A stretch of 58,842 nt of DNA from NCBI GenBank assembly GCA_037147155.1, contig JBAWVR010000001.1, forward strand, positions 1 to 58,842, given 5' to 3'. This document shows, piece by piece, positions 17,408 through 53,694 of the stretch (position 1 is its first letter; every line of letters begins with the position of its first letter). A model generated the notes under the pieces. It did no database searches, had not been told where the DNA came from, and saw nothing but the letters and a program-made list of their open reading frames with translations. The translations under genes were made by a program, and so were the position numbers. The DNA is from a bacterium (GTDB lineage Bacteria; Patescibacteriota; Minisyncoccia; Phycocordibacterales; GWA1-40-21).

Positions 17408-17546
17408 CCCGGTTGTGAGTTTTGGCATCGTTTTTAAAATTGCGTACCGGTACTGTTTTGATTATCCAATTAGCAAAACAGACCCTAGCTTAATACTAGA
17501 GTCTGTTCTGTTAAAAACAATTTTAATGCCAAAATCTACAACGGGG
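17408..17546. mobile_element. family A hairpin/TIR element (MITE-like), copy A1
   Basis: 139 bp with termini CCCGGTTGTGAGTTTTGGCA ... TGCCAAAATCTACAACGGGG. Near-identical copies lie at 35664-35801 (inverted) and 53695-53832. Flanked by TTA/TTA, and the right TTA is the rplY stop codon. Confidence 0.75.
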
Positions 17547-30062: not shown

Positions 30063-30165
30063 AGCCCTGTCTAGTCTTTTAGCTACAATCGGACACAAAA
30101 AACACTTACGGGTCAAATGCGATATTGTGAGTTTGTGTCCTGTCTTGTTGTATTTTCTTCGTCCT

Positions 30166-30190
30166 GGATTCCCGCCTGCGCGGGAATGAC
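30166..30190. repeat. family C palindrome (GGATTCCCGC..GCGGGAATGAC), solo half
   Basis: GGATTCCCGCCTGCGCGGGAATGAC, the same unit as at 34826-34850 and, in reverse complement, at 53466-53490. Confidence 0.8.
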
Positions 30191-30303
30191 AGAGGAGAAA
30201 AATCTCTTTCATTATTGCCTTTAATTATGGTAAAATTAGGACAAATACCAGAGACTGACATGACTGATTTTCTTATTAGAAACACCACCTAAAATTAAAC
30301 CTA

Positions 30304-34745: not shown

Positions 34746-34768
34746 AATAAAGCAAACCTCTACTGTTT

Positions 34769-34850
34769 GTCATTCCCGGCTTGACCGGGAATCCAGACCT
34801 TAAGTTACTATCACCTCCTCAACCTGGATTCCCGCCTGCGCGGGAATGAC
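34769..34850. repeat. family C composite palindrome (two inverted GTCATTCC hairpins)
   Basis: GTCATTCCCGGCTTGACCGGGAATCC (34769-34794) and GGATTCCCGCCTGCGCGGGAATGAC (34826-34850), separated by 31 nt. Confidence 0.8.
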
Positions 34851-34865
34851 AGAAAAATGAGCTTG

Positions 34866-35663: not shown

Positions 35664-35801
35664 CCCCGTTGTAGACTTTGGCATTAAAATTGTTTTTAAC
35701 CAAACAGGCTCTAGTATTAAACCAGGGTCTGTTTTGCTAATTAGATAATCAAACAATACCTGAACGCAATTTTAAAAACGATGCCAAAGCTCACAACCGG
35801 G
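35664..35801. mobile_element. family A hairpin/TIR element, copy A2 (inverted relative to A1/A3)
   Basis: Starts immediately after the efp TAA and is flanked by TAA/TAA. About 90 percent identical to the reverse complement of A1. Confidence 0.75.
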
Positions 35802-46438: not shown

Positions 46439-49400
46439 CTATTTAACCAACTTTAACTTAAACTCACTCTCCCCGACTTTTAACACCTCTCCTTCCACTG
46501 TTCCAAAATCAATTTCTACTGTTGCTGTCTTTTTGATTTCTTCTTGATAAAGGGTGACCAGAGTTTTACCGGCGTCATCTGTCTCGATAGTCAATTTGGC
46601 AATCTCGCCAGGATTGAGTCCAGTAGTTTTTCTCATTTCTTGAATCTGACGCAAGAGGTCGCGGAAATTTCCTTCTAACTTCAGTTCGTCAGTAATGTTC
46701 AAATCTAATTTAGTTGATTCATCTAACTTATCATCAAACAACACAGCCTTAACATTCACTTCATCAATAATTAGATTTAGGAAATCATCTTTACCAGCGA
46801 GAGTTTTATCTTTGACAGTCATTGATGCAAGTGGCTGGCGAACTTTCTGTCCGGCTTTAGCACGCATTTCTAATCCAACACTCACCAAACGACGAGTCTC
46901 AAACATGTTGCCCAAAAGTTCAGTATCCTTGGAATTTAATTCTGTCGCCTTTGGCCAATCTGCCAAGTGCACTGATTCTTTGTCGGTTTCAGTCTTCAAA
47001 GATTGATACAAAGTTTCGGAGACAAACGGCATGATTGGAGCCAAGAGCTTGGTCATTTCCAACAAAACATATCTAGTGGTCATAAGACCCTGATCTCTAT
47101 CTTCTACTACATCAGACTTGAAACGATCACGGGAACGACGCAAATACCAAGTAGACAAATCATCAACGAAATCTCCGAACGGACGAGCAGCCCGGTCTAG
47201 TTCATAATTCTCCAAGCCTTTGGTAACCGTCGCAGTTAATTCTTTGAGACGAGCCAGGATCCAGCGGTCCAAAACATTGGTACTGTCAGCGCTTGGAGCC
47301 AAAGGTTTTTCTCCCTTGTACATCTCGTAGAAAGAATGCACGTTTTGCAAACGCATAATTATTTTTTTGACCACTTCATCAACGCCCTTTTCAGAGAAAC
47401 GTAGGTCTTCAGCTTTGACCACTGGGCTAGACAAGAGATAGTAACGCAAAGCATCAGCACCGTATTTAGACACCACCAGCATTGGGTCAGGATAGTTTTT
47501 CAAGCGCTTGGACATTTTCTGACCATCTTCCGCCAAAACAATTCCGTTCACCACAACATTTTTAAATGATGACTTGCCAAACAATCCAACAGCAATAACC
47601 AACATCGAGTAGAACCAGCCACGAGTCTGGTCGAGTCCTTCACCAATAAATTCAGCGGGAAAACCTATCGCCTTTTTGAGGAAGCCAGGCTCTGGATTAA
47701 ACTTGTCCAAATTCTCATATGGATAGTGCCACTGGGCATAAGGCATGGAACCAGATTCAAACCAACAGTCAAAGACTTCTGGCACACGCTTCATCTCTTT
47801 ACCTTCACCACAAGCACAAGGAATCTTTACTTCATCAATATATGGTCGGTGCAAATCCAATTCATAATTGTCATTGTGTGGAATTGGAGTAAAGTCCAAT
47901 TTCTTCACTTCAGCGTTCTTGATAAAATCATGAGCTTCATGACGCATAGCAATCGCTTGATCTGGAGTCATGCCGGCAGCGCCAGCAAACATAAGCCAGC
48001 CTGGTGTATTGTGCGTCACTATCAAAATCTTTTTACCGGAATATTTTGAATTTATATCATACAAGAAGCTCACCATACGGTTCTTCACATCAGTGTGACT
48101 TTCTCCTCCTTCTGGTACTTTGTGGAATTTTTCTTCACGAGAACCAAAATATGCCTGATACTCGGCATCGGTTTTTCCATCCATCACCCCAACATTTATC
48201 TCTGACAATCTTTTATCAAAAATAATTTTGTCTTTACTAAAACCAATCATATCAGCGATTATTTCTACGGTTTCTTTGGTACGAACAAAAGGTGAAGCAA
48301 AAACCATATCGATTTTTTCTTTCTTTAGATTCATCGCCGTCTCCCGAGCTTGTTCCCTACCCAATGCTGTCAAAGGATTTGGATCATCTACTTTAGCTGA
48401 CAAAATCTTTTTAACATTACTCTCTGATTGACCATGGCGAACAACCAAAAATTCATTTCTCTGACCAATCGTTTTTTTCAAATCCTCAACTCCTCCAATT
48501 ACTTTAATAGCTTTACAATCTTCACAACGCCAAATTGGCAATGGTGCTCCCCAATAACGAGAACGAGAAATTGCCCAATCACGAGCGCCTTCAAGCCATT
48601 TACCAAAACGTCCTTCGCCAATTTCTTTTGTTACCCAATTAATATCATTATTTGCCTTGAGCAAACTATCACGCATCTTGGTCACTTCCACGAACCATGA
48701 TGAGGTCGCGTAGTTCAGCAATGGAGTATCACAACGCCAACAGTGTGGGTAAGAGTGCACGACTTTTTCTTTGGCAAACAACTGATTCTTGCCAGCCAAA
48801 TGCTTAATCATGGCGATGTCCATAGACATATGCTTTTCTTTTTCTTCAGCGGTATCGATAGGTTTTACATACTGTCCGGCAAATTCAGTCACTTCTGGTC
48901 GCATCTTACCGTCATAGGACACATGCTGGATAAACGGCATCTTGTATTCTTTGCCAAGATTCAAGTCATCCTCACCGAAAGCTGGGGCGATATGCACCAC
49001 ACCAGTACCATCTTCGGTAGTGACAAATGAAGCAGGGTAAATTTTGAAACCATTCTCCAAATTCTTTATATCACTACCCGGCTTGGTGTAATAATCAAAT
49101 AGTGGAATATATTTTTTACCCACCAAAGTCTGACCATTAAATTTTTCTACCAATTCGTAAGTGTCCTTGATAACTGACAAGCGACTTTCCGCGAGAATAT
49201 AAAATTCCGCACCAACTTTAACTTTGACATAATCAATATCTGGATTAATCGCCAAGGCCACGTTGCCCGGCAAAGTCCAAGGAGTTGTCGTCCAAGCGAG
49301 AACGTATGCTCCCCTCTCATCGGCCAATTCAAATTTAGCAGTAGCGGTAATATCGGTAATATCTTTATATCCTTGAGCTACTTCAAAGTTGGACAAAGTG

Positions 49401-49981
49401 GTGCCACAATGTGGACAAAGATGCATAGATTTGAAACCTTCATAGACCAAACCTTTTTCATGAAGTGTACGGAAAATCCACCACACAGACTCGGTGTAGC
49501 TAGAGTTTATGGTGCGATAGTCTTGCTCCATATTCACCCAACGTCCCACTCTCGGCACAATCTTCTTCCATTCATCCGCATAACGCATCACACTTGAGCG
49601 TGCACGCTCATTAAAATCTTTTAGTCCGTAATCTTCAATATCTTTTTTTGACTTTAAGCCCAGTTCTTTTTCCACAATGTTTTCCACTGGTAAACCGTGA
49701 CAATCCCAACCCCATTTACGGTCAACATGAAAACCACACATAGTGCGGTAACGTGGAATAACATCCTTGATAGTACCAGCGAGGAGGTGGCCATAGTGAG
49801 GCAGGCCGGTCGCAAACGGTGGACCATCGTAAAAGACATATTCACCTTTTGGTGATTCCTTGGCTAGAGCTTTTTCAAAAATATTATTGGTCTGCCAAAA
49901 AGCCATAGTCTCCTCCTCTTTTTGGGCGAGAGCACTCTTTGGAAAATCAAAATCCTGTTCTGCTTCTTTGTTGTCTGACAT
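46439..49981 (-). CDS. ileS: isoleucyl-tRNA synthetase (type 2-like) with an inserted histidine-phosphatase domain
   Basis: 1180-aa ORF: PHYGHLLAG (HIGH), an editing domain, KMSKRLKN, and an extra ~190 aa with RHGQSESN ... SPFVRTKET ... GGESH ... VTHN at residues ~508-697. Confidence 0.9.
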   Translation of the reverse strand: MSDNKEAEQDFDFPKSALAQKEEETMAFWQTNNIFEKALAKESPKGEYVFYDGPPFATGLPHYGHLLAGTIKDVIPRYRTMCGFHVDRKWGWDCHGLPVENIVEKELGLKSKKDIEDYGLKDFNERARSSVMRYADEWKKIVPRVGRWVNMEQDYRTINSSYTESVWWIFRTLHEKGLVYEGFKSMHLCPHCGTTLSNFEVAQGYKDITDITATAKFELADERGAYVLAWTTTPWTLPGNVALAINPDIDYVKVKVGAEFYILAESRLSVIKDTYELVEKFNGQTLVGKKYIPLFDYYTKPGSDIKNLENGFKIYPASFVTTEDGTGVVHIAPAFGEDDLNLGKEYKMPFIQHVSYDGKMRPEVTEFAGQYVKPIDTAEEKEKHMSMDIAMIKHLAGKNQLFAKEKVVHSYPHCWRCDTPLLNYATSSWFVEVTKMRDSLLKANNDINWVTKEIGEGRFGKWLEGARDWAISRSRYWGAPLPIWRCEDCKAIKVIGGVEDLKKTIGQRNEFLVVRHGQSESNVKKILSAKVDDPNPLTALGREQARETAMNLKKEKIDMVFASPFVRTKETVEIIADMIGFSKDKIIFDKRLSEINVGVMDGKTDAEYQAYFGSREEKFHKVPEGGESHTDVKNRMVSFLYDINSKYSGKKILIVTHNTPGWLMFAGAAGMTPDQAIAMRHEAHDFIKNAEVKKLDFTPIPHNDNYELDLHRPYIDEVKIPCACGEGKEMKRVPEVFDCWFESGSMPYAQWHYPYENLDKFNPEPGFLKKAIGFPAEFIGEGLDQTRGWFYSMLVIAVGLFGKSSFKNVVVNGIVLAEDGQKMSKRLKNYPDPMLVVSKYGADALRYYLLSSPVVKAEDLRFSEKGVDEVVKKIIMRLQNVHSFYEMYKGEKPLAPSADSTNVLDRWILARLKELTATVTKGLENYELDRAARPFGDFVDDLSTWYLRRSRDRFKSDVVEDRDQGLMTTRYVLLEMTKLLAPIMPFVSETLYQSLKTETDKESVHLADWPKATELNSKDTELLGNMFETRRLVSVGLEMRAKAGQKVRQPLASMTVKDKTLAGKDDFLNLIIDEVNVKAVLFDDKLDESTKLDLNITDELKLEGNFRDLLRQIQEMRKTTGLNPGEIAKLTIETDDAGKTLVTLYQEEIKKTATVEIDFGTVEGEVLKVGESEFKLKLVK

Positions 49982-50061: not shown

Positions 50062-50395
50062 ACCACAACTATGTCATCCGCCCTGGGCGGATCCCCGCCC
50101 GAACGGACCGAGTCCGCTCGGTACGGGCGGGCAGGCAACCTTTCCGTTAGGAAAGTCCAAGAAATGACAATTAAAAAAATGGCGTCTCCTCCGGGATTCG
50201 CCACTTCGTGCAACCAGGTCGTATCAACGACCGGGTCTTGGTATGCCCGCTTGGGGCAACTTTGGGATTTCGATGTACACGGTACACCTCCTTCTCTGCA
50301 AAAGAACTTCTGTTTAGTTTTTGACCACAGTCTTCCGAGAATGCGGTCCGGATGAATAGACTACAACACGGCTCAATAAAAGTCAAATGTTTTAA
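50062..50395 (+). ncRNA. rnpB: RNase P RNA (bacterial), boundaries approximate
   Basis: Conserved blocks occur in the correct order and spacing: GGAAAGTCC (~50149), GTGCAAC (~50209), ACGGTACACCTCC (~50279), GATGAATAGACT (~50350), ACAACACGGCTCAATA (~50364). 5' TCATCCG pairs with 3' CGGATGA. A strong terminator follows. Confidence 0.65.
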
Positions 50396-50509: not shown

Positions 50510-50628
50510 GTCATTGCGAGGTATTCCGAAGCAATCCAGTCTTAATGGCGTTTTTTAACTAAAGGTCTGCCCGCCCGTACCGGACGGTACGTTCGGGCGG
50601 GGATTGCTTCGGAATACCTCGCAATGAC
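50510..50628. repeat. composite palindrome: two inverted 28-nt GTCATTGC hairpins around a GC-rich hairpin
   Basis: GTCATTGCGAGGTATTCCGAAGCAATCC (50510-50537) and its exact reverse complement (50601-50628). CCCGCCCGTACCGGACGGTACGTTCGGGCGGGG (50570-50602) lies between them. The repeat overlaps the last ~25 codons of the RT ORF. Confidence 0.8.
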
Positions 50629-51622
50629 CCGACGTCTCAGTTACCTCTTTGGACAACCTCCCAGCATTCCCATGCCTCAACATCCCCAAGTACGACTGCA
50701 CGGTCGCCTCTTTACCTTGTTTCTCTGCAATATTCCTAAACATTCTTTTCTTGGTGGCATTACGAATCACTCGGTGGTCATTAAAATGCACCCACCCGAG
50801 AAAGTCCACTCCCGAAGCCACAGTTGATACAGAAACCTTATTGGGGTGAAGTGTGAGTTTTAATTCAGCTCCGAGGAATTCCCCAACTTTGACCAAAACC
50901 TCTTCCAACCACTTTTTGTCCTGCGACATAAAAACAAAGTCATCAGCATATCTAATATAGTGCTTGGCTTTTAGTTTATGCTTCGCAAATTGGTCAAACT
51001 TATTCATATAAATATTTACCAGTAGTTGAGAAGTCAGATTCCCCAAAGGCAAACCAACACCCGCATGAGTAGAATGAAAACTCCCGACGATTTTCTGGAG
51101 CAGTCCCCGAATATCTTCATCTGGTATGTATTCAAAAAGTATTTTCAATAAAACATTATGGTCAATACTCGCAAAAAACTTTTTAATATCACACTTCAAT
51201 ACCCAAACAGTCTTAGTGTGATTACAAGAAACTTGGTATTCAAATTTTCTAAATGTTTCTATTGCTTTGTGTGTGCCTTTGTTCACCCGACACGAATATG
51301 AGTCGCTAATGAAAGTCTTGTCGAAAAATGGGTAAAGGATTCTATATAGAGCATGGTGGAGCAATCTGTCTCTCACTCTGGCTTTGTGAATACTTCTTGG
51401 CTTGGGGTCGGAAATATTGAAAGCTTGATAGGGCGAGTGAACATATTTTTTATCCCTTAAATCTTCATGCAAAGAAATAATATTTGTCATTAAATTCCTT
51501 TCAAACTCTCTGACATCTTCCCGACTTTTCTTGCCTACGACAAATTCTTTCCAAGCCAAAAGCAGATTTTCCAGAGAAATAATGTTACTATACTTTTGTT
51601 CAAAAACTTTTTTGTTATTCAT
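50555..51622 (-). CDS. DGR-type reverse transcriptase
   Basis: 355 aa from MNNKKVFEQ (ATG 51622; the track ORF starts at 51697). Contains RT motifs, LPLGNLTSQLLVNIYMNKFD (GNLTSQ as in DGR RTs) and YIRYADDFVF. No maturase or endonuclease domains. A TR/VR pair lies nearby. Confidence 0.85.
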   Translation of the reverse strand: MNNKKVFEQKYSNIISLENLLLAWKEFVVGKKSREDVREFERNLMTNIISLHEDLRDKKYVHSPYQAFNISDPKPRSIHKARVRDRLLHHALYRILYPFFDKTFISDSYSCRVNKGTHKAIETFRKFEYQVSCNHTKTVWVLKCDIKKFFASIDHNVLLKILFEYIPDEDIRGLLQKIVGSFHSTHAGVGLPLGNLTSQLLVNIYMNKFDQFAKHKLKAKHYIRYADDFVFMSQDKKWLEEVLVKVGEFLGAELKLTLHPNKVSVSTVASGVDFLGWVHFNDHRVIRNATKKRMFRNIAEKQGKEATVQSYLGMLRHGNAGRLSKEVTETSGHCEVFRSNPRPNVPSGTGGQTFS

Positions 51623-51643: not shown

Positions 51644-52025
51644 ATGACTATGACGCCCCCCCCCCGCAAAATTATTACCTCTACTACAAAAACTCAAGGA
51701 TAATTATATTCTCTGGTATAGCTACTATTTAACCCTACCTAAACTCCACCGTCATTCCTTGGGTCAAAAAATTGACTGCTTATATATTGAGATTATTGAA
51801 GCCATATCTATTGCCAGTTATCTATCTAAGGAAGAGAAACTGCCATGGGTTAGACTTGCCACCCGCAAGACTGACACTCTCAAAATATTACTTTTGGTTT
51901 TATGGGAAACCAAATCACTTGATAACAAGAAGTATCTAGCCGTATCGGTAAAAATTGAAGAAATCGGACGGATGCTTGGCGGTTGGAGTGGTCAAATATC
52001 TAAACAAAACTCTCCCAACAAATAG
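51644..52025 (+). CDS. avd: Avd-like four-helix-bundle accessory protein, reading frame broken at a C10 tract
   Basis: The track ORF 51759-52025 (TTG start) encodes ...LGQKIDCLYIEIIEAISIASYLSKEEKLP...EEIGRMLGGW. The same frame is open back to 51654 and encodes the expected first helix (ILWYSYYLTLPKLHRHS). The only ATGs (51644, 51650) are out of frame by one C of the run at 51656-51665. Confidence 0.6.
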
Positions 52026-52046
52026 TCGGGAGAGAAATAGAGAGAG

Positions 52047-52183
52047 TTGCGACGCAGGAACACGAAACGATTGTCTGCATTGTAGAAGTTGTCAGCATGG
52101 CCATTGTTGCTATTGAGCCACAACTCGCCATCATCATTGCACTTCACATTGAACACCTTGAGGTCGCCGTCCGAGTCGGTTAT
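52047..52183 (-). repeat. DGR template repeat (TR), 137 nt
   Basis: Aligns without gaps to 52542-52678 (121/137 identical). At all 16 mismatches this copy has T on the plus strand, which is A on the transcribed minus strand. Confidence 0.9.
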
Positions 52184-52434
52184 ATATAAAATATCATCCA
52201 TATCACTGTCCTTTGAATACTCTCAAGACTGTATCTAATTTGGCATCGTAATGCTCCAATATTTTATACCAAGTATCTCTTGTTTTTAATAATACACACA
52301 CCACTCTATCCAAAACCTTGATCTTGAATACTCTCGATGTATGGATACTGTGTTCGGTAGTAGAAAACCGTAATCTTCCACATATTCACCTACTTACTTT
52401 TTTATTATAGCAGACACGACCGTTTTTGAATATT

Positions 52435-52472
52435 AAAAAAGCACCCTCATTGCCGAAGCAAATTGAGGGTGC
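52435..52472 (-). terminator. rho-independent terminator after the DGR target gene
   Basis: GCACCCTCATTGCCGAAGCAAATTGAGGGTGC hairpin followed by TTTTTT on the minus strand. Confidence 0.7.
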
Positions 52473-52537: not shown

Positions 52538-53179
52538 CTACTTGCGACGCAGGAACACGAAACGATGGTCAGCATTGTAGAAGCGGCCAGCATGGCCATA
52601 GTAGCTAGAGAGCCACAACCCGCCATCATCACCGCACTCCACATGGAACACCTCGAGGTCGCCGTCCGAGTCGGTGATGGGTTCCATCGCAATGATGATC
52701 CATTCTCCTCTCGGCTGGTCCTGGTACTGCAAACGCAGTTGGGGACCAACTTCGGCAGGACAGAGGTCGAGACCAAGCTTGATAGCTTGCTCGTAGATTT
52801 CCTTGATGCTAGCCCCTTCCTTGAAGCCAAGCTCGCGAACCGAGAGATTCACGAGATCAACCTCGTTTTCCGTAGTGGACACGCTGGCTTCAAAAGCAGA
52901 CTTGCCGAGGATATCGTTGGCCCAGTCGCTGATATTGCTACCAGCTTTCTTCAGAACCTTACGGAAGTCACCGGCATTCTTGGGCCCGGTGCCGATCTTG
53001 ATGGTCTTCCAGATCGGGAAGTCCTTATCAACTTCATCCAAAATCAGGGCCTCGAGAACCTCTTGCAGTCTTGTGGGGTTTCCCATCCACTTCTGCATTT
53101 TTTCCCCTGTGAGTCCGGCCGGAAGGCAGGTGCACATGGCGGAGATGAAAGCGGCGGTCTGTTTGTTAATTGTGCTCAT
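52538..53179 (-). CDS. DGR target protein (213 aa), fold not recognised
   Basis: ORF with AAGGAA upstream of the ATG. The last 45 codons are the VR. No signal peptide or TM helix. Visibly GC-richer than the surrounding sequence. Confidence 0.8.
   Translation of the reverse strand: MSTINKQTAAFISAMCTCLPAGLTGEKMQKWMGNPTRLQEVLEALILDEVDKDFPIWKTIKIGTGPKNAGDFRKVLKKAGSNISDWANDILGKSAFEASVSTTENEVDLVNLSVRELGFKEGASIKEIYEQAIKLGLDLCPAEVGPQLRLQYQDQPRGEWIIIAMEPITDSDGDLEVFHVECGDDGGLWLSSYYGHAGRFYNADHRFVFLRRK
52542..52678 (-). repeat. DGR variable repeat (VR)
   Basis: Counterpart of the TR. It begins one codon before the stop codon of the target gene, and the 16 differences from the TR all lie at TR-adenine positions. 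Confidence 0.9.
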
Positions 53180-53337
53180 GGTGTTTTTTCCTTTCTTAGG
53201 TTTTCACCATTTTATGCTTGACCATCAAACGCGATGGTCATAGCCAGAAACCTATGTTTTATGCCAGTTTACTGGCAAACAAGGGCTTGTGGCTATGACC
53301 ATTTAAGTAGTTTTCTTAGTCAAAGAACTATGTATAT

Positions 53338-53366
53338 AGTATACACCCTTTGAAGTCTTTTGTCAA
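53338..53366 (-). promoter_or_regulatory. near-consensus sigma70 promoter for the DGR target gene
   Basis: Minus strand: TTGACA (53366-53361), 17 nt, TATACT (53343-53338). Confidence 0.55.
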
Positions 53367-53465: not shown

Positions 53466-53555
53466 GTCATTCCCGCGCAGGCGGGAATCCAGTCTTATCT
53501 TTAAGACTTTCCTATCGGAAAGGTCGCCTGGATTCCTGGTCAAGCCAGGAATGAC
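53466..53555. repeat. family C composite palindrome
   Basis: GTCATTCCCGCGCAGGCGGGAATCC (53466-53490) and GGATTCCTGGTCAAGCCAGGAATGAC (53530-53555). Confidence 0.8.
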
Positions 53556-53617
53556 ACAGAAGAAAGCCGTAATTTGCTTCGCAAATTCCGGCTTTGGTTT
53601 TATACGTAGTCGATTCG

Positions 53618-53654
53618 CCCGCCCGTACCGAGCAGACTCGTCCGTTCGGGCGGG
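53618..53654. repeat. GC-rich hairpin, near-copy of the putative rnpB P3 hairpin
   Basis: The reverse complement of CCCGCCCGTACCGAGCAGACTCGTCCGTTCGGGCGGG matches 50094-50131, differing only by one indel and one substitution. Confidence 0.75.
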
Positions 53655-53694
53655 TATCATTCGTACAATTCGTATATTGGTATATTTACCTACA

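What the first reader, a model, noticed from the sequence alone, without database searches (positions are those of the whole stretch)
52538..53179. DGR target is a small, apparently cytoplasmic protein without an obvious C-type-lectin/FGE signature
The 213-aa target has no signal peptide or TM segment. It ends in ...ITDSDGDLEVFHVECGDDGGLWLSSYYGHAGRFYNADHRFVFLRRK. Most described DGR targets display variable residues on a C-type lectin (or Ig-like) fold and are usually surface-exposed or phage tail proteins. I do not recognise those signatures here, and the N-terminal 165 aa match nothing I know. The gene is visibly GC-richer than its surroundings. It has a near-consensus promoter and an SD, unlike most genes in the window. 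It may represent an unrecognised variable-ligand-binding scaffold acting inside the cell.
Basis: inference. Interest (0 to 1): 0.65.

Follow-up and report, generated by a model that had tools for sequence, protein, structure and literature searches.

The report
Small CPR-type DGR variable protein
This gene is the hypervariable target of a diversity-generating retroelement; it belongs to a very large, unnamed family of small proteins in candidate-phyla-radiation bacteria that lack export signals and probably use a very divergent C-type-lectin-like fold, a class already noted in the literature but never characterised.

Summary
ORF 52538-53179 (-) encodes a 213-aa protein. Its last 46 codons (VR 52542-52678) differ from a template repeat (TR 52047-52183) at 16 bases, all of them TR adenines. 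A DGR-type reverse transcriptase and an Avd gene lie next to it. The protein has no signal peptide or TM segment and no hit in Pfam, NCBIfam, PHROGs, PADLOC or PDB sequences. It is GC-rich and has the best promoter match in the region plus a Shine-Dalgarno site.

It is not an isolated oddity. It belongs to a family with over 6,700 representative clusters, almost all from Patescibacteria. About half of the sampled loci carry the same cassette (target, TR, inverted avd, RT) and the rest have no DGR. Family variability peaks at the TR AAY codons.

Two high-confidence AlphaFold models both return C-type-lectin domains as top Foldseek hits, but none is significant (E 0.05-0.15, TM about 0.45). None is an FGE-type or known DGR protein. 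My best reading is a compact, very divergent CLec-like domain with the VR forming its last strands. A new scaffold is not excluded.

Published surveys already describe CPR DGR targets as lacking TM or recognisable domains. Location is unresolved: about 6% of diverse homologs carry Sec signals. Interest is moderate.

The parts
52538..53179 (-). Target (variable protein) gene, 213 aa
   Evidence: ORF listing and translation. 1426 homologs at 90% clustering. AlphaFold model with pLDDT 92.
52542..52678 (-). Variable region (VR), codons 168-213, at the 3' end of the target gene
   Evidence: 137-nt repeat with the TR. 16 mismatches, all at TR adenines.
53338..53366 (-). Sigma-70-like promoter TTGACA-17-TATACT of the target gene
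   Evidence: 11 of 12 matches, the best in the region. One of 5 such sites in the window.
53189..53193 (-). Shine-Dalgarno core AAGGA, 9 nt upstream of the ATG
   Evidence: Read directly from the sequence. SD-like cores are rare in this window, 4 of 35 ORFs.
53234..53302 (-). 26-nt-arm inverted repeat (long hairpin) in the ~155-nt 5' UTR of the target
   Evidence: Inverted repeat I5, 85% complementary. Parts of this UTR are weakly conserved in some homologous loci. Function unknown.
52441..52472 (-). Intrinsic terminator of the target gene (stem-loop followed by a T run)
   Evidence: Fold -13.6 kcal/mol, z = -4.98.
52184..52412 (-). Conserved structured non-coding leader 5' of the TR. It starts with a TGnTATAAT -10 box at 52409-52404.
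   Evidence: 70-79% nucleotide identity to more than 30 related loci. 52 consensus pairs, 42 with compensatory changes. Only a partial weak match to Rfam RT-7. No Rfam family reaches its gathering score.
52047..52183 (-). Template repeat (TR)
   Evidence: It encodes ITDSDGDLKVFNVKCNDDGELWLNSNNGHADNFYNADNRFVFLRR. It has 8 AAY codons inside the repeat, with one more at its 3' boundary.
52010..52034 (-). Stable hairpin just 3' of the TR
   Evidence: Found by the terminator scan. Fold -8.7 kcal/mol, z = -4.2.
51644..52025 (+). avd (accessory variability determinant), on the strand opposite to target and RT. A C10 tract at 51656-51665 puts the ATGs at 51644/51650 one base out of frame with the conserved Avd reading frame.
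   Evidence: bAvd PF22296 at 2.4e-7. NF033474 at 4.3e-10. Frame analysis.
50555..51622 (-). DGR reverse transcriptase, 355 aa from the ATG at 51622. It contains LGNLTSQ, the [LIV]GxxxSQ motif typical of DGR RTs. The last ~28 codons overlap a dispersed repeat.
   Evidence: RVT_1 at 2.5e-25. PADLOC RT at 5.5e-55. Homologs match residues ~7-327. Repeat overlap.
50090..50157 (.). Left copy of short GC-rich dispersed repeats that flank the cassette in inverted orientation
   Evidence: Inverted repeats I2, I3, I8. Further copies elsewhere in the window.
53505..53658 (.). Right copy of the same dispersed repeats

Best explanation
**What it is.** The gene encodes the variable protein of a complete candidate-phyla-radiation (CPR)-type diversity-generating retroelement. 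The cassette runs target, then TR, then avd on the opposite strand, then RT. This is the layout Wu 2018 calls 'B3', and the lineage corresponds to the Patescibacteria clade 2 of Roux 2021.

**How it works (inferred from the established DGR mechanism).**
- An RNA starts at a TATAAT box just after the target's terminator.
- It carries a ~230-nt conserved structured leader, followed by the TR.
- RT with Avd reverse-transcribes it, misincorporating at adenines.
- The cDNA replaces the last 137 nt of the target gene.
- This can rewrite up to 24 codons, about 10^20 possible proteins.

**The protein.**
- It belongs to a very large, unnamed, Patescibacteria-centred family with a conserved ~160-residue core (residues ~55-213) and a variable N-terminal leader.
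- The core is most likely a small conserved alpha/beta subdomain (~58-100) followed by a compact, highly divergent, Ca-motif-free C-type-lectin-like domain (~105-213).
- In that domain the VR forms the last three beta-strands and their loops.
- Hypervariable positions are interleaved with invariant aromatic and hydrophobic residues (F178, V180, W189, L190, W/Y201, F209).
- This arrangement gives an adjustable ligand-binding face on a fixed frame.

**Expression and location.**
- The protein is expressed on its own from a strong promoter, an SD site and its own terminator.
- It has no Sec signal, TM segment or conserved disulfide pair, so by default it stays in the cytoplasm.
- Its ligand and its site of action are not known.

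**Shown versus inferred.**
- Shown: the DGR parts, the adenine-only pattern, the family, where variability falls, and the absence of export signals.
- Inferred: the fold class, a single binding face, the cellular location, and whether the element is currently active.
For: **DGR anatomy.** VR/TR with 16 of 16 mismatches at adenines. RT with RVT_1 and the LGNLTSQ motif. Avd.

**Same cassette elsewhere.** About 33 of 79 species-representative loci carry it, with adenine-biased VR/TR mismatches such as 22/22, 21/21 and 20/20.

**Family size.** 1426 clusters at 90% identity. 6776 representatives at 50% identity with E <= 1e-3. 416 loci in GTDB species genomes. Only 2 loci in 2.9 million viral contigs.

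**Where variability falls.** Family entropy exceeds 3 bits at codons 176, 179, 191, 193, 194, 196, 199, 202 and 205. Seven of these are TR AAY codons; 176 is AAG and 196 is CAT, both adenine-containing. They lie between near-invariant scaffold residues. Within one 90% cluster, members are identical up to about residue 168 and differ heavily only in the VR.

**Fold.** Models have pLDDT 92.2 and 92.8. In both, the top PDB matches are CLec domains: Mincle, BDCA2, NKp65, NKp80, CEL-IV, DCIR, DCAR2, MCL and Bd2740. Alignments cover ~125-133 columns with TM 0.42-0.46 normalised to the target. All other fold classes score TM below 0.2. Bd2740 is a Ca-free CLec variant likened to Mtd (PMC10769870). 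The element order beta105-113, alpha125-134, alpha144-151, beta160-163, beta175-182, beta188-194, beta206-211 matches the CLec core described in PMC6328139.

**Precedent.** AvpA was unassignable by sequence, yet its crystal structure showed a new CLec subclass (PMC5006420).

**No export signal.** for this protein. About 94% of 268 family members also lack one.
Against: - No Foldseek match is significant. The best E-values are 0.055 and 0.15, probability is at most 0.72, and TM is below 0.5.
- No solved DGR variable protein (Mtd, TvpA, TaqVP, AvpA) or FGE appears in the top 50 of either search.
- BFVD gives nothing useful.
- Profile searches against PDB sequences and Pfam give nothing for 109 members.
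I could not test strand pairing or whether the variable residues form one exposed patch.
- Eight to ten of 150 diverse representatives carry clear Sec signal peptides or N-terminal anchors with P/T-rich linkers. This argues that the domain can work outside the cell.
- avd is out of frame with its nearby ATGs, so the element may currently be off.
- Two TR codons (AAG at 176 and 181) can mutate to a stop codon.
Confidence: 0.6

Rival explanations
1. The core is a genuinely new variable-display scaffold unrelated to the C-type-lectin fold. The CLec hits are then chance similarity between small alpha/beta domains.
For: All Foldseek E-values are >= 0.05 and TM is 0.42-0.46 with rmsd 5.5-6.5 A. No known DGR variable protein or FGE is among the top 50 hits. 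No sequence or profile link to any CLec family exists. The region 58-100 resembles a partial repeat of 122-151, which is not a CLec feature (read, inference). Wu 2018 left the CPR variable-region classes it calls UVR1-6 without a fold assignment.
Against: Two models built from different sequences give the same fold family for more than 20 of the top ~38 hits, while every other fold scores far lower. The secondary-structure order and the C-terminal position of the VR match the CLec description. AvpA shows that CLec variants can be invisible to sequence methods.
Confidence: 0.3
2. The protein acts outside the cytoplasm as a surface or secreted adhesin for host or particle attachment, the usual role proposed for CPR DGR targets. 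It would reach the outside by a route that needs no classical signal peptide.
For: P0139, P0150, P0199, P0233, P0238 and P0267 carry textbook Sec signal peptides. P0124 and P0198 have an N-terminal TM helix followed by a P/T/S-rich stalk. In all of these the same core domain follows. Known CLec-fold DGR proteins are receptor-binding or surface proteins (PMC6328139; PMC8144416). Reviews of CPR assume an attachment role (PMC10221324).
Against: This protein and about 94% of the 268 sampled members have no signal or TM segment. The ORF cannot be extended upstream. Natural short forms have only ~19 residues before the core. There is a single invariant Cys and no conserved disulfide pair. No secretion or pilus gene is a conserved neighbour.
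Confidence: 0.35
3. The locus is a DGR that is currently switched off or decaying, and the protein now has a fixed specificity, like the many orphan homologs.
For: The Avd reading frame has no in-frame ATG, GTG or TTG before codon ~37, and the ATGs just before the C10 tract are out of frame. The RT C-terminus is overlapped by a dispersed repeat. About half of homologous loci have lost TR, avd and RT, and several of them keep remnants of the TR leader. Orphan copies in three MAGs are not matched by the TR in the same MAG with an adenine-only pattern.
Against: The VR and TR are otherwise identical over 137 nt, with only adenine changes, so homing was recent. RT residues 1-327 are intact and 55-70% identical to homologs. 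The C tract with variable length and frame is conserved in 28 of 32 loci, which looks like regulation rather than decay.
Confidence: 0.35

Closest known systems
CPR/Patescibacteria DGR targets as catalogued by Paul et al. 2017 (Nat Microbiol 2:17045, not readable here), Wu et al. 2018 (PMC5758913) and Roux et al. 2021 (PMC8144416)
   Same: Same host group. Same cassette layout with inverted avd, which Wu 2018 calls 'B3' and reports for 90% of CPR DGRs. The target is small, has a C-terminal VR, and has no TM or recognisable domain. Wu 2018 grouped such CPR variable regions into six clusters of unassigned fold ('UVR1-6'), and Roux 2021 placed Patescibacteria DGRs in its 'clade 2'. Family members come from the same groundwater MAG sets those surveys used (RIFCSP, RBG and GW2011 records).
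   Different: I could not confirm which of the six UVR clusters this family corresponds to, because the supplements and Paul 2017 are not held.
AvpA, Nanoarchaeota DGR variable protein (PMC5006420)
   Same: Small (256 aa), single-domain, monomeric DGR target from an ultra-small symbiont lineage. It could not be assigned by sequence or threading. Its structure showed a non-FGE CLec subclass.
   Different: No detectable sequence relation: a PDB profile search at E <= 10 does not find it. It is not among the top 50 Foldseek hits. AvpA's VR is 23 residues and is not at the extreme C-terminus of the protein. Here the VR is 46 residues and ends at the stop codon.
Mtd, TvpA and TaqVP: FGE-type CLec DGR variable proteins (PMC6328139, PMC2408619)
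   Same: C-terminal VR of 40-45 residues. AAY-rich TR. Non-variable aromatic residues inside the variable site. Potential repertoire around 10^20.
   Different: No FGE-sulfatase signature. No structural hit to these proteins or to FGE in the top 50. The domain is much smaller, lacking the long inserts. It is cellular rather than phage-borne.
Canonical and bacterial Ca-free C-type lectin domains (Mincle 8h4v/4kzv, BDCA2 3wbr, NKp65 4iop, Bdellovibrio Bd2740 8oks)
   Same: These are the best structural matches of both models, aligning over essentially the whole lectin domain (123-134 columns).
   Different: TM is only 0.42-0.46 and sequence identity 5-11%. There are no conserved disulfides and no EPN/WND Ca-sugar motifs. 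The long-loop region appears to be missing. An extra conserved N-terminal subdomain is present.
Rfam RF03028 RT-7 RNA (a motif associated with reverse-transcriptase genes)
   Same: The P2 hairpin of the TR leader (window 52337-52284) matches the first 48 positions of the model, including AGAGU...UCAAGG...AGAGUG.
   Different: The score is 24.5 bits against a gathering score of 116.8, and 137 model positions are absent. Related loci give no hit at gathering level. The CPR leader has further helices of its own.

Membership tests
DGR variable protein (target gene) | VR/TR repeat pair whose differences are confined to TR adenines | tested here: met
   137 nt, 16 of 16 mismatches at TR adenines.
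DGR variable protein (target gene) | Nearby reverse transcriptase of the DGR type ([LIV]GxxxSQ in place of the QGxxxSP of group II introns) | tested here: met
   RVT_1 at 2.5e-25. The sequence reads GLPLGNLTSQLL. That this motif defines DGR RTs rests on established knowledge (Doulatov 2004; Wu 2018).
DGR variable protein (target gene) | Avd accessory gene in the cassette | tested here: met
   bAvd and NF033474 hits. The conserved frame is 41-78% identical to Avd in related loci. A canonical in-frame start codon is missing.
DGR variable protein (target gene) | IMH-like adenine-poor 3' end of the VR plus a downstream hairpin or cruciform | tested here: inconclusive
   The last 23 nt of the repeat are adenine-free and identical in VR and TR, apart from the final two As. 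The hairpins after the VR are weak, z = -1.3.
C-type-lectin (CLec) fold variable domain | Sequence or profile match to Lectin_C, FGE-sulfatase, DUF1566 or a solved CLec protein | tested here: not met
   No such Pfam hit for this protein, and none among the most-matched families of 109 members at E <= 10. None in PDB.
C-type-lectin (CLec) fold variable domain | Structural similarity to solved CLec domains | tested here: inconclusive
   CLec domains are the top hits for two models, but E is 0.055-0.15 and TM 0.42-0.46.
C-type-lectin (CLec) fold variable domain | Core topology: beta1 and beta5 paired, two roughly perpendicular helices, beta2-beta3-beta4 sheet (PMC6328139) | not testable with these tools
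   The order of elements fits. Pairing and geometry need coordinates, which the tools do not return.
C-type-lectin (CLec) fold variable domain | VR spans beta3-beta5, variable residues are solvent-exposed on one face, and one or two invariant aromatics lie in the site | tested here: inconclusive
   The VR covers strands 175-182, 188-194 and 206-211. W189 and W/Y201 are invariant among hypervariable positions. Exposure and a single patch were not testable.
FGE-subtype CLec (Mtd/TvpA/TaqVP) | Structural or sequence homology to formylglycine-generating enzyme | tested here: not met
   No PF03781 hit. No FGE, Mtd, TvpA or TaqVP among the top 50 Foldseek hits of either model.
Secreted or surface-anchored protein | Sec/lipoprotein signal peptide or TM segment | tested here: not met
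   KD19 maximum is 1.06, there is no lipobox, and no upstream extension is possible. About 6% of diverse homologs do have one.
Phage receptor-binding or tail protein | Encoded in phage genomes or next to phage structural genes | tested here: not met
   2 loci in 2.9 million viral contigs against 416 in genomes. No PHROG hit. The flanking genes are IleRS and ArgRS.

The most novel reading that the evidence does not exclude
The family is a cytoplasmic hypervariable binder. In this reading, Patescibacteria use a DGR to diversify a small soluble intracellular recognition protein, for example to capture or neutralise phage or host-derived molecules. They can also freeze useful variants by losing the retroelement, which would explain the static orphan copies. 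That would be DGR-driven recognition acting inside the cell, not at the surface, on a minimal CLec-like or new scaffold.
Probability: 0.3. Interest if true: 0.8.

Novelty: new member of a known kind. Interest (0 to 1): 0.4.

Why it matters
CPR bacteria make up a large share of bacterial diversity and are among the lineages richest in DGRs. What their DGRs diversify, and where those proteins act, is an explicitly open question. Roux 2021 writes that it 'remains to be established' whether these are genuine non-membrane targets.

This family has thousands of members. Its core is compact (~160 residues) and is modelled with high confidence. It has natural DGR-linked members, static members and signal-bearing members. 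That makes it a practical system for settling the question by structure determination, localisation and ligand fishing. A thermally robust ~110-residue variable domain could also be useful as a display scaffold.

Tried and rejected
1. **Neighbourhood with aminoacyl-tRNA synthetases.** The window and the first three homologous contigs all had an aaRS gene next to the target. A scan of 135 nearest neighbours from 79 loci gave 168 different Pfam families, with each aaRS-related Pfam domain matching only 2-3 of the 135 neighbours. There is no conserved partner, so I rejected the idea.
2. **Trans-targeting of orphan copies.** In three MAGs that hold both a DGR-linked and an orphan copy, TR-versus-orphan-VR identity is 73-79%, and only 42-58% of mismatches fall at adenines. 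I rejected this.
3. **Phage origin.** Rejected.
4. **Defence-system annotation.** PADLOC gives no hit for the target.
5. **PDB sequence hits.** The matches to designed toroid repeat proteins (dTor, E ~2e-4, 27 residues) and to MBF (E ~1) are short chance matches. I did not pursue them.
6. **Fused domains.** Longer family members (634, 479, 423 aa and others) have no Pfam domain. Several are tandem duplications of the same core.
7. **Known RNA family for the TR leader.** Nothing reaches a gathering score.
8. **Literature.** Paul 2017 and the Wu 2018 supplements are not held. I could therefore not assign the family to a named UVR class.
9. **Mapping variable residues onto the model.** This was not possible because coordinates are not returned.

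Full report
**1. The observation**

The ORF 52538..53179 (-) exists as described. It is 213 aa and starts at the first start codon after an upstream stop. It ends with the quoted sequence.

Its last 137 nt (52542-52678) repeat at 52047-52183. The two copies differ at 16 positions, and all 16 are adenines in the downstream copy. Adenines are 37 of the 137 bases there, so the chance of this pattern is about 1e-9. The downstream copy is therefore a DGR template repeat (TR), and the gene's 3' end is the variable region (VR).

The 16 nucleotide differences fall in 13 codons and change 11 residues. Twenty-four codons contain mutable adenines. Eight are AAY codons inside the repeat, with one more at the repeat's 3' boundary. 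The theoretical repertoire is about 10^20.7 proteins. Two AAG codons (176 and 181) can mutate to a stop.

The remaining cassette parts are present:
- A reverse transcriptase lies at 50555-51622 (-). It matches RVT_1 and carries the LGNLTSQ motif.
- An Avd gene lies on the opposite strand at 51644-52025.

- There is no TM segment or signal peptide; the KD19 maximum is 1.06.
- No library recognises the protein: Pfam, NCBIfam, PADLOC, PHROGs and PDB sequences all give nothing.
- GC is 0.52-0.54 against 0.40 for the window. The excess sits at synonymous sites, with GC3 of 0.65 against 0.31-0.42 in neighbouring genes.
- The promoter TTGACA-17-TATACT is one of only five 11-of-12 matches in the window. 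An AAGGA Shine-Dalgarno core lies 9 nt before the ATG, in a genome where only 4 of 35 large ORFs have one.
- The gene has its own strong terminator.

**2. The family**

The protein is not an orphan. It has 1426 homologous clusters at 90% identity, all about 200-215 aa, none with a Pfam domain. The only names attached are 'hypothetical protein' from Patescibacteria MAGs.

A profile search of 1.84 billion representatives finds 6776 at E <= 1e-3 and 1846 at E <= 1e-30. A scan of one genome per GTDB species finds 416 loci, nearly all in Patescibacteria records. A scan of 2.9 million viral contigs finds 2.

The conserved core is residues ~55-213. The first ~50 residues vary and are missing in natural short forms. 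Long forms are mostly tandem duplications and have no recognisable extra domain.

**3. Link to DGRs**

I examined 79 species-representative loci.

About 33 carry the same cassette in the same order:
- The TR lies about 330 nt after the stop codon, followed by avd on the opposite strand, then RT.
- Their VR/TR mismatches are almost all at adenines, for example 22/22, 21/21 and 20/20.

Roughly as many loci have no TR, avd or RT within 8 kb:
- Several of these keep remnants of the non-coding TR leader, so they look like loci that lost the retroelement.
- In three MAGs with both kinds of copy, the orphan VR is not an adenine-only derivative of that MAG's TR.

Across the family, entropy peaks above 3 bits at codons 176, 179, 191, 193, 194, 196, 199, 202 and 205. 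Seven of these are TR AAY codons, and 176 (AAG) and 196 (CAT) also contain adenine. They sit between near-invariant residues F178, V180, W189, L190, G195, P197, W201, V208 and F209. Within a single 90% cluster, members are identical up to about residue 168 and diverge heavily only in the VR. Diversification is therefore ongoing in natural populations.

No gene other than the DGR parts is a conserved neighbour.

**4. The fold**

An AlphaFold model of the window protein has mean pLDDT 92.2, and 96-98 across residues 70-210. A second model of a natural 173-aa homolog, 61% identical to the window protein, has mean pLDDT 92.8 and pTM 0.86.

Foldseek against the PDB gives the same picture for both models:
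- The top hits are C-type-lectin domains: Mincle, BDCA2, NKp65, NKp80, CEL-IV, DCIR, DCAR2, MCL, a snake-venom lectin, and the Ca-free CLec tip of Bdellovibrio Bd2740.
- They align over 123-134 columns with TM 0.42-0.46 relative to the lectin.
- Everything else scores TM below 0.2.

None of these matches is significant; the best E-values are 0.055 and 0.15. No FGE and none of Mtd, TvpA, TaqVP or AvpA is in either top 50.

The element order over residues 105-213 is beta, alpha, alpha, beta, beta, beta, beta. This is the CLec order described by Handa et al.. The VR covers the last three strands, as in solved DGR proteins. AvpA sets a precedent: it was unassignable until its crystal structure showed a new CLec subclass.

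I conclude with about 65% confidence that this is a compact, very divergent, non-FGE CLec-like domain preceded by a conserved alpha/beta subdomain. A truly new scaffold keeps about 30%.

Coordinates are not returned by the tools.

**5. Location**

This protein has no export signal, and neither do about 94% of the 268 family members sampled. There is one invariant Cys and no conserved disulfide pair.

However, 8-10 of the 150 diverse representatives have textbook Sec signal peptides, such as MNMKLTLLVLLGILGLVNPAIA|GD. Others have an N-terminal TM helix followed by a P/T/S-rich stalk. In all of these the same core follows. The domain can therefore function outside the cell in some lineages.

I take the cytoplasm as the default for this protein, at about 55-60%. 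I keep non-classical export as a serious rival.

**6. Comparison with the literature**

- Wu et al. 2018 report that 90% of CPR DGRs have the cassette layout they call 'B3'. They also report that CPR variable regions fall into clusters (their 'UVR1-6') whose fold could not be assigned.
- Roux et al. 2021 place Patescibacteria DGRs in their clade 2. [quoted passage not shown] They say it 'remains to be established' whether these are genuine non-membrane targets. They expect novel CLec variants in CPR.

- the scale of the family;
- the static orphan copies;
- the signal-bearing minority;
- the family-wide GC3 excess;
- the repeated CLec-like structural result.

I file the finding as a new member of a known kind and score its interest as moderate.

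**7. Seen in passing**

Two features of the cassette may be more novel than the target itself.

The first is a structured non-coding leader directly 5' of the TR:
- It is about 230 nt long (52412-52184, minus strand).
- It is 70-79% identical across more than 30 loci whose proteins are only 50-60% identical.
- It has 52 consensus base pairs, 42 of them with compensatory changes.
- It begins at a TGnTATAAT box and ends in a long-range helix that abuts the TR.
- Rfam has only a weak partial match, RT-7.

The second is a homopolymeric C run at the 5' end of avd:
- The window's C10 tract (51656-51665) is its only C or G run of 8 or more.
- A comparable run of 6-13 C sits at the same place in 28 of 32 related cassettes.
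- Its length and frame vary between loci. In the window the nearby ATGs are one base out of frame with Avd.
- This suggests a slippage-based on/off switch of DGR activity. A role as a poly-G element in the TR-RT RNA, or assembly error in the tract length, is not excluded.

Noticed in passing
window 52184-52412 (minus strand), between the target's terminator and the TR: A ~230-nt non-coding leader directly 5' of the TR is 70-79% identical across more than 30 related CPR DGR loci. It folds into a consensus of 52 pairs, 42 with compensatory changes. It starts at a TGnTATAAT box (52409-52404), and its last helix abuts the TR. No Rfam family reaches its gathering score; there is only a weak partial match of one hairpin to RF03028 RT-7. 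It is probably the RT/Avd-binding part of the DGR RNA in this lineage.
   Followed up: partly
window 51644-51665 (+ strand): ATGACTATGACG followed by C10 at 51656-51665: The only C or G run of 8 or more in the window sits at the 5' end of avd. It puts the nearby ATGs one base out of frame with the conserved Avd frame; C9 or C12 would restore it. A C run of 6-13 occupies the same place in 28 of 32 related cassettes. Some are in frame (L010, L056, L014), some are out of frame (L022, L024, L046), and about 10 have no canonical start nearby. It could be a phase-variable switch of DGR activity, a slippage site, or a poly-G element ~30 nt upstream of the RT start on the other strand. The held DGR papers contain no occurrence of 'homopolymeric tract'.
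   Followed up: partly
related loci L007, L013, L044, L021, L065, L015, L023 and others: About half of the family's loci have no TR, avd or RT within 8 kb. Several keep remnants of the TR leader just downstream of the gene. These look like variable proteins 'frozen' by loss of the retroelement. In three MAGs the orphan VR is not an adenine-only derivative of the MAG's TR.
   Followed up: partly
window 52538-53179 and 73 related loci: Genes of this family are GC-richer than their host flanks in 70 of 73 loci, by 12.7 points on average. This holds for orphan copies too, while the adjacent RT is about 5 points GC-poorer. In the window the excess is at third codon positions (GC3 0.65 against 0.31-0.42). 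The cause is unexplained. Candidates are codon selection for high expression, biased gene conversion, or frequent transfer.
   Followed up: partly
window 50090-50157, 50561-50628 and 53505-53658; further copies at 30164-30202, 34768-34853, 17409-17433, 35776-35800: Short GC-rich dispersed repeats (MITE/REP-like, with palindromic parts such as GTCATTCCCGCGCAGGCGGGAATCC) flank the whole DGR cassette in inverted orientation. They also overlap the last ~28 codons of the RT ORF.
   Followed up: partly
window 53234-53302 (5' UTR of the target, minus strand): A long imperfect hairpin (26-nt arms) and a second short hairpin (~53220-53240) lie in the ~155-nt 5' UTR between the strong promoter and the SD site. 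Parts of the UTR are weakly conserved in a few homologous loci. This may be a regulatory structure.
   Followed up: no
proteins P0139, P0150, P0199, P0233, P0238, P0267, P0124, P0198: A minority of family members carry Sec signal peptides, or an N-terminal TM helix followed by a P/T-rich stalk, ahead of the same core. A few loci (L016, L028, L085) have two targets served by one TR, and a few (L006, L014) have two TR copies.
   Followed up: partly
window 46439-49981 (minus strand): The isoleucyl-tRNA synthetase ORF (1180 aa) seems to contain an inserted stretch resembling a histidine-phosphatase/phosphoglycerate-mutase domain (…VVRHGQSESN…). This was read by eye from the translation.
   Followed up: no
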